The notes under the pieces were generated by a model. It made no database searches. It was given only the letters and a program-made list of their open reading frames with translations, and was not told the origin of the DNA. Of a DNA stretch of 64,000 nucleotides, positions 19,862 to 20,368 are shown piece after piece; positions within the stretch are counted from its first letter, which is position 1, and the number at the start of each line of letters is the position of its first letter. Location: contig CM097883.1 of assembly GCA_044892505.1 (NCBI GenBank), forward strand, positions 278,194,001 to 278,258,000, read 5' to 3'. Position numbers and translations under genes: made by a program. The DNA is from Schmidtea nova. Lineage: Eukaryota.

Positions 19862-20368
19862 TCATGAGTCACATGTTAGTATGAAATCAACAAAGGCTTT
19901 ATCTTCGATAATTGATTTTATATCGTTAAGAATATTATCAACTATAGTTGAATAGTCTTTGTTTTTTTATCCTAATATGACTAATTTTCCACTTGCAAAT
20001 ATATTTACACACATTGGATTATATTTGATATATCTCAAAGCTGGAAATAATTCTGGCTCGTAAACACACGGTATCAATTTAGATAATTCATTTAAATTAA
20101 AAATAAATCCTAAATCCGCAGTTACAGTTATCGATTGTATTGTTAAATCGTGAAACTTTACTTGTTCATCACTAATAAATTCCTTGCATCCCGTTATCCT
20201 ATATCTGCCTGTCTTAAAGTATATTATCGGATACTTTCCACTTCTATCTACAATTTGCTGTGGTTTTCCATTTGGAAATTTCATGTGTGACACATCTGTC
20301 TTACCCTTGTAATTAATGTTTCTAATCATTACTGAAAATATTTTTAAATGAAACAAATACTTTGACAA
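19862..20368 (-). pseudogene. TATA-binding-protein-like gene with a premature stop near the C-terminus
   Basis: Two TBP-type repeats: ..IIYFKTGRYRITGCKE and IQSITVTADLGF.FNL..L...YEPELFPALRY..YNP...IFASGKLVILG; frame stays open past TAA 19967 (KNKDYSTIVDNILNDIKSII). Confidence 0.8.

What the first reader, a model, noticed from the sequence alone, without database searches (positions are those of the whole stretch)
19862..20368. Maverick/adintovirus encodes its own compact TBP-like protein
Seen: an intronless two-repeat TBP-fold ORF divergently adjacent (~55-90 bp) to the packaging ATPase that heads the virion gene block. It decayed like its neighbours (one stop). Known: TBP homologues are typical of giant DNA viruses and are not in the Maverick core set. 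Inference: a viral late-transcription factor or TBP decoy; the first repeat is much shortened, so specificity may be altered.
Basis: partly seen in the sequence, partly recalled or inferred. Interest (0 to 1): 0.8.

Follow-up and report, generated by a model that had tools for sequence, protein, structure and literature searches.

The report
Maverick mini-TBP with matching promoter box
A virus-like jumping element with at least 150 copies in this animal genome carries a shrunken, rewired version of the cell's TATA-binding protein, and its capsid and packaging genes sit behind a variant TATA box, so the protein likely acts as the element's own switch for making virus particles.

Summary
Confirmed and extended. 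Window 20329-19862 (-) encodes a 155-codon TBP homologue with one internal stop, head-to-head with the packaging ATPase of a decayed Maverick/adintovirus. The predicted structure matches TBP over 144 residues. Repeat 1 keeps its strands but lacks both helices and one intercalating Phe. It is not a recent passenger: 28 of 29 fetched siblings are uninterrupted, dN/dS is about 0.1, 50 of 50 ATPase-selected copies carry it, and its relatives form one clade apart from host TBP (AU p=0.0004). The acidic TFIIB stirrup is near-invariant, while DNA-facing residues carry near-invariant polar substitutions. A variant TATA octamer, YATAAACR, lies sense-only upstream of 82 of 98 virion/integrase starts, mostly 30-44 nt before the ATG, against 0 of 52 TBP starts and 3 of 88 starts in a TBP-less Maverick family of the same genome. 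Best reading (0.65): an element-specific TBP that recruits host TFIIB/Pol II to late promoters. Binding and expression are untested. Starrett 2021 uses a 'TBP' gene label without analysis. This scan reported the same protein and box earlier in other genomes.

The parts
19862..20329 (-). Compact TBP homologue (155 codons, one internal stop in this copy)
20330..20422 (.). 93-bp AT-rich divergent intergenic region between TBP and ATPase starts
20386..20393 (+). YATAAACR box, 37 nt before the ATPase ATG; no upstream gene on this strand, so not a poly(A) signal
20423..21045 (+). A32/FtsK-like packaging ATPase, broken by frameshifts and stops
21031..21038 (+). YATAAACR box, 35 nt before a basic conserved ORF
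21066..21440 (+). Conserved basic ORF (26 loci), possible core protein, truncated here; function not tested
21443..21450 (+). YATAAACR box at the integrase region (beside a deletion junction)
21450..22258 (+). rve integrase, 5' part missing, frameshifted
22106..22113 (+). YATAAACR box upstream of the putative minor capsid gene
22231..23646 (+). Putative minor capsid (penton) gene(s); identity inferred from size and position only
23541..23548 (+). YATAAACR box about 100 nt before a small conserved ORF (inside coding sequence)
23642..24019 (+). Small conserved ORF (about 121 aa)
23977..23984 (+). YATAAACR box, 42 nt before the major capsid ATG
24019..25241 (+). Putative major capsid protein, frameshifted; linked indirectly to a Pfam DJR protein (tblastn E 7e-9 through a relative)
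25373..25693 (+). Adenain-type cysteine protease
25732..26133 (+). Conserved ORF of 133-160 aa (21 loci), function not tested
26351..26358 (+). YATAAACR box, downstream gene not identified
28745..31758 (+). Protein-primed family B DNA polymerase, frameshifted; no YATAAACR on either strand in 28700-31800
18213..18617 (-). Conserved beta-rich ORF (24 loci); a relative's model weakly resembles phage ssDNA-binding proteins (E 0.03, TM 0.48); not a cyclin/TFIIB fold
19271..19594 (-). Variable ORF downstream of TBP, no Pfam match
17897..32368 (.). Minimum extent of the Maverick by alignment to siblings; the right end may reach about 34,000; termini not resolved

Best explanation
The gene encodes a compact, Maverick-specific TBP that likely binds the YATAAACR box found upstream of the element's virion, packaging and integrase genes and likely recruits the host's TFIIB and RNA polymerase II there, acting as a late-gene switch. 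Shown: the TBP fold; loss of the two repeat-1 helices and of the Phe99 equivalent; retention of three intercalating Phe and of the acidic stirrup; near-invariant polar substitutions on the DNA face; purifying selection; the box's gene-class, strand and distance pattern; its near absence from a TBP-less family. Inferred: that the protein binds this box, that it uses host TFIIB/Pol II, that it is made early from a host-type promoter, and that loss of the repeat-1 helices frees it from TFIID, TFIIA and Mot1-type control (roles of that surface are recalled, not tested). The copy in the window is a dead relic.
For: Fold. Conservation in 129 homologues (yeast numbering): E186 127, E188 129, F190 129, F207 129, F116 127, N69 122; F99 replaced by Pro 127; V71 to N 121, V122 to R 125, N159 to S 127, V161 to T 117, I194 to R 127, L205 to N 129. 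The pattern holds in 64 of 139 more distant representatives that span the domain (L205 to N 64, V122 to R 63, E188 62). Selection: dN/dS 0.08 (28 siblings), 0.12 (32), 0.23 (26 metagenomic). Box: 82 of 98 virion/integrase starts, 0 antisense, about 2 expected from shuffles, against 0 of 52 TBP starts; 44 of 82 lie 30-44 nt before the ATG; 70 of 73 G000 ATPase ORFs; 7 sense and 0 antisense in the window's virion block and in each of 5 siblings. Control: a TBP-less family in the same genome has it at 3 of 88 starts. TBP genes more often have a canonical TATA (19 of 52 against 7 of 98, p 2e-5). Precedent: the KSHV TBP mimic ORF24 reads TATT late promoters with polar substitutions at V122, V161 and L205 among others (PMC12529657 Table 1).
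Against: No binding, transcript or start-site data. The box was spotted by eye on the loci on which it was then counted; the G000 check uses close relatives and includes two discovery loci. The TBP-less control is a single lineage. Over the whole window the octamer is not enriched (26 against 23.4 expected). Some sites lie in upstream coding sequence, and 5 of 82 are under 20 nt from the assigned ATG. Only 12 of 82 G000 TBP starts, and not the window's own, have a canonical TATA, so the 'early host promoter' step is weak here. Wild-type plant TBP was crystallised on a C(-25) TATA variant (PDB 1qn3 title), so host TBP can bind a similar box. Siblings were picked as best protein matches, which biases dN/dS down, and the ATPase queries came from TBP-bearing elements.
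Confidence: 0.65

Rival explanations
1. The box is a real promoter element but is read by host TBP or a host TBP paralogue; the viral TBP serves another role (Pol III-type transcription, terminal-repeat or replication function, or repression of the box).
For: Host TBP can be crystallised on a C7 TATA variant (1qn3 title). The host has several TBP-family genes. The acidic stirrup also binds Brf1-type factors (recalled).
Against: The TBP-less family in the same host does not use the box (3 of 88). One box is kept across elements whose ATPases are 37-80% identical to the first aligned sequence. Position-1 preference differs between two TBP clades (C:T 7:36 against 20:13, one contrast only).
Confidence: 0.17
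2. Decoy or dominant-negative TBP that sequesters host TFIIB or occupies host TATA boxes to dampen host or defence transcription.
For: The TFIIB-binding stirrup is the most conserved surface, and regulatory surfaces are deleted.
Against: A TFIIB sink would not need invariant, family-specific polar residues across the DNA face, and it does not explain the co-occurring box.
Confidence: 0.1
3. The octamer is not a TATA variant but a forkhead site, a poly(A) signal or a coding artefact, and is unrelated to the TBP.
For: ATAAACA fits the forkhead consensus, and TATAAA/CATAAA are poly(A) variants (both recalled). Several sites overlap the upstream gene's stop codon or coding sequence.
Against: In 86 upstream regions ATAAACA occurs sense in 59 and antisense in 0, GTAAACA in 1, ATAAACG in 18. 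The ATPase site has no upstream gene on its strand in head-to-head elements. The distance peak fits TATA geometry.
Confidence: 0.06
4. Recently captured host TBP retrocopy carried as a passenger.
For: The gene is intronless, as a retrocopy would be.
Against: Only 22-28% identical to solved cellular TBPs but 36-74% to the 49 element-type relatives. It forms its own clade (100/100) and AU p=0.0004 rejects grouping with host TBP. Purifying selection.
Confidence: 0.02

Closest known systems
Cellular and archaeal TBP (Pfam PF00352; eukaryotic TBP/TRF/TLF)
   Same: Two-repeat saddle (Z 11.7, 144 residues); N69, F116, F190, F207 and the YEPELFP stirrup retained.
   Different: About 23 residues shorter in repeat 1 (N69-F116 spacing 37 against 47; G125-N159 21 against 34), with H1 and H2 helices absent in the model. 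F99 replaced by Pro; polar residues at V71, V122, V161, I194, L205. No N-terminal extension.
Beta/gamma-herpesvirus vTBP (KSHV ORF24, EBV BcRF1)
   Same: Works like it: a viral TBP derivative with a polar DNA face that would read a variant TATA box (TATT) of late genes (PMC12529657: abstract, sections 15-16 read).
   Different: ORF24 is a 752-aa multidomain protein in a six-protein complex, binds Pol II directly, lacks the acidic TFIIB residues and is predicted to be incompatible with TFIIB. The Maverick protein is a stand-alone 155-aa domain that keeps them.
TBP homologues of Nucleocytoviricota
   Same: Virus-encoded TBP fold; best BFVD hits E 1e-7 to 1e-3.
   Different: Only 9-24% identity in those hits. 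Those viruses mostly bring their own RNA polymerase (recalled), whereas no polymerase gene was seen in the elements annotated here.
'TBP' gene label in MELD viruses with adintovirus-like PolB (Starrett et al. 2021, PMC8502044, Fig. 5 legend)
   Same: A TBP-like gene in a Polinton-related element was noted.
   Different: Legend only. The word 'promoter' does not occur in the main text, the figure could not be seen, and whether it is the same family is unknown.
Mavericks/Polintons (Alpha-type adintoviruses)
   Same: pPolB, rve integrase, A32-like ATPase, adenain, putative capsid genes; PLA2 in a sister clade.
   Different: Carries a conserved basal transcription factor and a shared promoter box; a second family in the same genome has neither.

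Membership tests
TBP superfamily (PF00352) | TBP profile match above the curated cut-off | tested here: met
   53.4 bits against cut-off 22.9, repeat 2 only
TBP superfamily (PF00352) | Two-repeat saddle fold | tested here: met
   Predicted model, Z 11.7, rmsd 2.8, 144 aligned, model range 1-153
Canonical TBP orthologue | Complete repeat 1 with H1 and H2 helices | tested here: not met
   DSSP of the model shows no helix of 4 or more residues before residue 81; spacings shorter by 10 and 13
Canonical TBP orthologue | Four intercalating phenylalanines | tested here: not met
   F116, F190, F207 kept; F99 aligns to a near-invariant Pro
Canonical TBP orthologue | Acidic C-terminal stirrup (E186/E188) for TFIIB | tested here: met
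   127 and 129 of 129; 58 and 62 of 64. Sequence only; binding not modelled
Canonical TBP orthologue | Groups with host or animal TBP | tested here: not met
   Separate clade 100/100; AU p=0.0004
TBP superfamily (PF00352) | Binds and bends a TATA-type element and supports initiation | not testable with these tools
   Only the co-occurring box
Herpesvirus vTBP (ORF24/BcRF1/UL87) | Large multidomain protein with Pol II-binding N-domain, lacking the acidic TFIIB residues | tested here: not met
   155 aa, single domain, acidic residues kept (compare)
Nucleocytoviricota TBP | Belongs to a giant-virus TBP clade, in a genome with its own RNA polymerase | tested here: inconclusive
   Structural hits at low identity; the tree holds only a few unnamed viral-contig TBPs and leaves the origin unresolved; no polymerase seen in annotated loci
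Maverick/Polinton (adintovirus) | Protein-primed PolB | tested here: met
   PF03175 E 2e-5 on a fragment; tblastn over 28745-31758
Maverick/Polinton (adintovirus) | rve integrase | tested here: met
Maverick/Polinton (adintovirus) | A32-like packaging ATPase and adenain protease | tested here: met
Maverick/Polinton (adintovirus) | Double-jelly-roll major and single-jelly-roll minor capsid proteins | tested here: inconclusive
   No direct Pfam hit; major capsid linked to a DJR-positive protein through a relative, E 7e-9; minor capsid by position only
Maverick/Polinton (adintovirus) | Terminal inverted repeats and 6-bp target duplication | tested here: inconclusive
   No left-right inverted match found in the window; N stretches lie near both ends; siblings carry an inverted match to 33633-33986 on their left side

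The most novel reading that the evidence does not exclude
A large clade of animal Mavericks runs its own early-to-late programme with a single 150-residue, re-specified TBP: the smallest TBP-type initiation factor, stripped of host regulatory surfaces, that reads a C7 TATA variant and hands the promoter to host TFIIB/Pol II. This would be the first defined transactivator-promoter pair for Mavericks, convergent with herpesvirus vTBP but TFIIB-dependent, and a natural orthogonal TBP-promoter pair.
Probability: 0.55. Interest if true: 0.85.

Novelty: new variant of a known kind. Interest (0 to 1): 0.72.

Why it matters
How Mavericks/Polintons switch on their capsid genes, and whether they do so autonomously, is an open question (my knowledge). 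A conserved viral TBP together with a cognate box upstream of exactly the virion genes makes this testable, and argues that these elements keep a virus-like transcription cascade under selection. For transcription biology, a TBP that has lost the repeat-1 helices and one Phe wedge but kept the TFIIB stirrup is a natural experiment on the minimal initiation factor and on how TATA specificity can be rewired. The box also gives a simple marker for annotating late genes in this clade.

Tried and rejected
Expression: no RNA holder listed. TBP-less controls from viral contigs: the ATPase alignment gave 1 distant locus, the capsid alignment none, and the phage collection none; the only control is the second family in G000. 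Own TFIIB gene: phmmer with host Brf1-like and TFIIB exons over the window's element and the TBP-bearing loci found nothing better than E 0.8 (weak method). The commonest flanking gene folds as a beta-rich domain weakly like phage SSBs; the wider fold search for it had not finished and was not seen. Whole-window motif count is not enriched. Terminal repeats were not resolved. The 63-row careful tree did not finish; the quick tree and a 25-row careful tree were used. L109, first labelled Maverick, groups with cellular-type TBPs and has no hallmark gene. L176 was a wrongly cut frame and is uninformative. The first archaeal scan found nothing; the second gave few outgroups, so the origin of the gene is unresolved. 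In one search the column labelled R196 corresponds to I194 by the alignment. Patikoglou et al. 1999 is not held, so the Hoogsteen reading of the C7 variant is recalled only. Literature searches returned no analysis of a Maverick TBP or of this box; subscription journals, Repbase and the unreadable or cut supplements of PMC8502044 were not covered.

Full report
OBSERVATION. The minus-strand frame at 19862-20368 has one internal stop and a terminal stop. The true start is the ATG at 20329: 28 of the 29 sibling loci fetched have a 155-aa ORF starting there, the other 128 aa. The ATPase ATG is at 20423, 93 bp away, head to head. Pfam TBP matches repeat 2 at E 2e-14, and all 35 PDB sequence hits are TBP chains or TBP fusions. 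An AF2 model built on 47 sequences has mean pLDDT 92. It matches TBP by Foldseek (44 hits at E <= 0.001, all listed ones TBP-containing) and by VIA-align (Z 11.7, rmsd 2.8, 144 residues, model range 1-153; best non-TBP Z 6.0). Both repeats are therefore present. Repeat 1 keeps its strands but has no helix of four or more residues; landmark spacings are 37 against 47 and 21 against 34 residues in repeat 1, and 47 against 48 in repeat 2 (124 of 129 homologues measurable).

THE ELEMENT. The gene lies in a decayed Maverick that aligns to siblings over at least 17897-32368. On the plus strand follow ATPase, a basic ORF, integrase, putative minor capsid, a small ORF, putative major capsid, adenain, a conserved ORF and protein-primed PolB, most broken by frameshifts, stops or deletion. 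Terminal repeats were not resolved. The host is an AT-rich animal whose own intron-containing TBP is up to 87% identical over the exon tested to mollusc, brachiopod and flatworm TBPs.

NOT A PASSENGER. The genome search returned 150 matches (the scoring cap) at 94-100% identity. Choosing copies by ATPase instead, 30 of 30 and 20 of 20 G000 loci carry the gene next to the ATPase; the queries came from TBP-bearing elements. Pairwise dN/dS is 0.08 for 28 siblings, 0.12 for 32, and 0.23 for 26 metagenomic ORFs with saturated dS; the sibling set is biased towards conserved proteins. The family is wide: 49 proteins from a single query, 634 by profile, a count that may include cellular TBPs, and 65 clusters at 50% identity with E <= 1e-30. 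Of 80 metagenomic loci, 43 carry a Maverick hallmark gene (30 of 37 at 3 kb or more), in varied gene orders. In the 63-row quick tree 34 of 35 rows labelled Maverick form one clade (SH-aLRT 99); the exception, L109, is cellular-like. In a 25-row careful tree the clade has 100/100, and holding the window protein with host TBP is rejected (AU p=0.0004). The donor is unresolved.

ANATOMY. Yeast numbering follows the profile alignment; the list of DNA-contacting TBP residues agrees with Table 1 of PMC12529657. In 129 homologues N69, F116, F190, F207, E186 and E188 are kept in 122, 127, 129, 129, 127 and 129. F99 aligns to a Pro (127). Hydrophobic floor residues become polar: V71 to N (121), V122 to R (125), V161 to T (117), I194 to R (127), L205 to N (129), with N159 to S (127). 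The pattern holds in the 64 of 139 more distant representatives that span the domain. So the TFIIB-binding stirrup is preserved and the DNA face is under strong but different constraint. Recalled, not checked: F99/F116 insert at the 3' end of the TATA box and F190/F207 at the 5' end (PMC1935006 passages give only the two insertion steps, T1-A2 and 7-8); I194, V203 and L205 are the sites of the altered-specificity yeast mutant TBPm3; the repeat-1 helices bind TFIIA, TAF1 and Mot1. Besides its stop, the window copy departs from the family at one otherwise invariant column, in keeping with decay.

A MATCHING BOX. Reading upstream regions in 79 metagenomic and 6 G000 loci showed a recurring octamer, YATAAACR (seen before I consulted earlier notes by words). 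After dropping near-duplicate regions and ORFs with short flanks or unmatched starts, it lies within 100 nt on the sense strand of 82 of 98 virion, packaging and integrase starts (ATPase 26 of 27, major capsid 10 of 11, PLA2 8 of 8), never antisense, with about 2 expected from shuffles, and of 0 of 52 TBP starts. Of the 82, 44 lie 30-44 nt before the ATG, the geometry of a TATA box with a short leader; 5 are under 20 nt. TBP genes more often have a canonical TATAWAWR (19 of 52 against 7 of 98). In G000, 70 of 73 ATPase ORFs have the box. The window has 7 sense and 0 antisense sites in 20330-26400, as do 5 of 5 siblings, and none in PolB. A second Maverick family in G000 (102 capsid matches; Pfam DJR capsid, Pox_A32 ATPase, PLA2-integrase) has no TBP-like gene within its own gene run at the 14 places examined; the hits in 3 of 28 stretches fall in adjoining copies of the first family. 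It shows the box at 3 of 88 starts, all in one gene at about 70 nt. Forkhead and poly(A) readings fit poorly: ATAAACA is sense in 59 and antisense in 0 of 86 regions, GTAAACA occurs once, and the ATPase site has no upstream gene on its strand in head-to-head elements.

AGAINST. The box was found and counted on the same loci. The control is one lineage. The octamer is not enriched over the whole window (26 against 23.4). Only 12 of 82 G000 TBP starts have a canonical TATA, and the window's own does not. Host-type TBP has been crystallised on a C(-25) variant (PDB title). Nothing here shows binding, timing or expression.

MECHANISM. Best reading (0.65): the protein is made early, binds YATAAACR through its rewired underside, and through its acidic stirrup recruits host TFIIB and Pol II to virion and packaging genes, outside TFIID control. 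The remodelled repeat 1 would face positions 7-8, where the box departs from TATAWAWR. No element-encoded TFIIB was detected (weak test), and the commonest flanking gene looks SSB-like. Rivals: host TBP reads the box (0.17), decoy (0.10), box unrelated (0.06), passenger (0.02).

KNOWN WORK. [quoted passage not shown] The figure, the slide supplements and the cut part of the archive could not be seen and may show whether it is this family. PMC12529657 (abstract, sections 15-16) describes KSHV ORF24, which also has a polar DNA face but lacks the acidic TFIIB residues. PMC1935006 and PMC12209930 were read as passages. Searches returned no analysis of a Maverick TBP or its box; other listed papers were seen as listings only. 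Earlier notes of this scan report the same protein in at least two other genomes, one with the TATAAAC box, and TBP-TFIIB pairs in other elements; these are unchecked notes and not independent support.

VERDICT. A real, conserved, selected viral TBP variant with a candidate cognate promoter. It is a TBP-superfamily member but not a canonical TBP orthologue and not a herpesvirus vTBP; it probably works like the latter while staying TFIIB-dependent. New variant of a known kind; interest 0.72.

Noticed in passing
L210-L217, L249-L268 (G000): A second, TBP-less Maverick family (102 capsid matches, PLA2 fused to integrase, PolB convergent with the virion block). Some copies are nested in or beside TBP-bearing copies; 74 of 88 starts have T(W)AAA+ abutting the ATG, which may be only an AT-rich start context.
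   Followed up: partly
L132:1204-1818, L133:1285-1737, L131/L134 (G000): The host has two divergent TBP paralogues with long uninterrupted frames that group together (100/95), plus a duplicated TBP2-like locus, besides canonical TBP.
   Followed up: partly
window 16399-17047: Four plus-strand YATAAACR sites left of the aligned element, with no matching gene found.
   Followed up: partly
metagenomic loci L031-L110: Box position 1 is mostly T in one TBP clade (C:T 7:36) and more often C in the PLA2-bearing clade (20:13); one contrast only, no clear protein column explains it.
   Followed up: partly
upstream of integrase in L032, L042, L073, L143, L147: A short conserved ORF beginning Met-Gly follows the box; possibly a myristoylated virion peptide (motif reading recalled).
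   Followed up: no
window 18213-18617 (-): Conserved flanking gene; a relative's confident model (pLDDT 94) weakly matches phage ssDNA-binding proteins, a candidate replication SSB.
   Followed up: partly
L081:7136-7993, L097:606-1739 and 4459-5433: KilA-N plus DUF3627 genes, and C2H2 zinc fingers before integrase or on PolB, in the sister clade of TBP-bearing Mavericks.
   Followed up: no
window 41035-45104 (-), 48480-49118 (+), 51216-51686 (+): Degenerate LTR retrotransposon (gag, protease, RNase H, integrase), an S-adenosylmethionine decarboxylase ORF, and a hAT transposase fragment.
   Followed up: no
window 32806-33433 and 57139-57658: Near-perfect palindromic (foldback) repeats of 70-108 nt arms shared between the two places, MITE-like.
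   Followed up: no
G000 C2:401696621-401708725, C3:118282959-118295084, C1:287926770-287938226: Pairs of long open PolB frames in opposite orientation about 10 kb apart, suggesting inverted dimers or shared elements.
   Followed up: no
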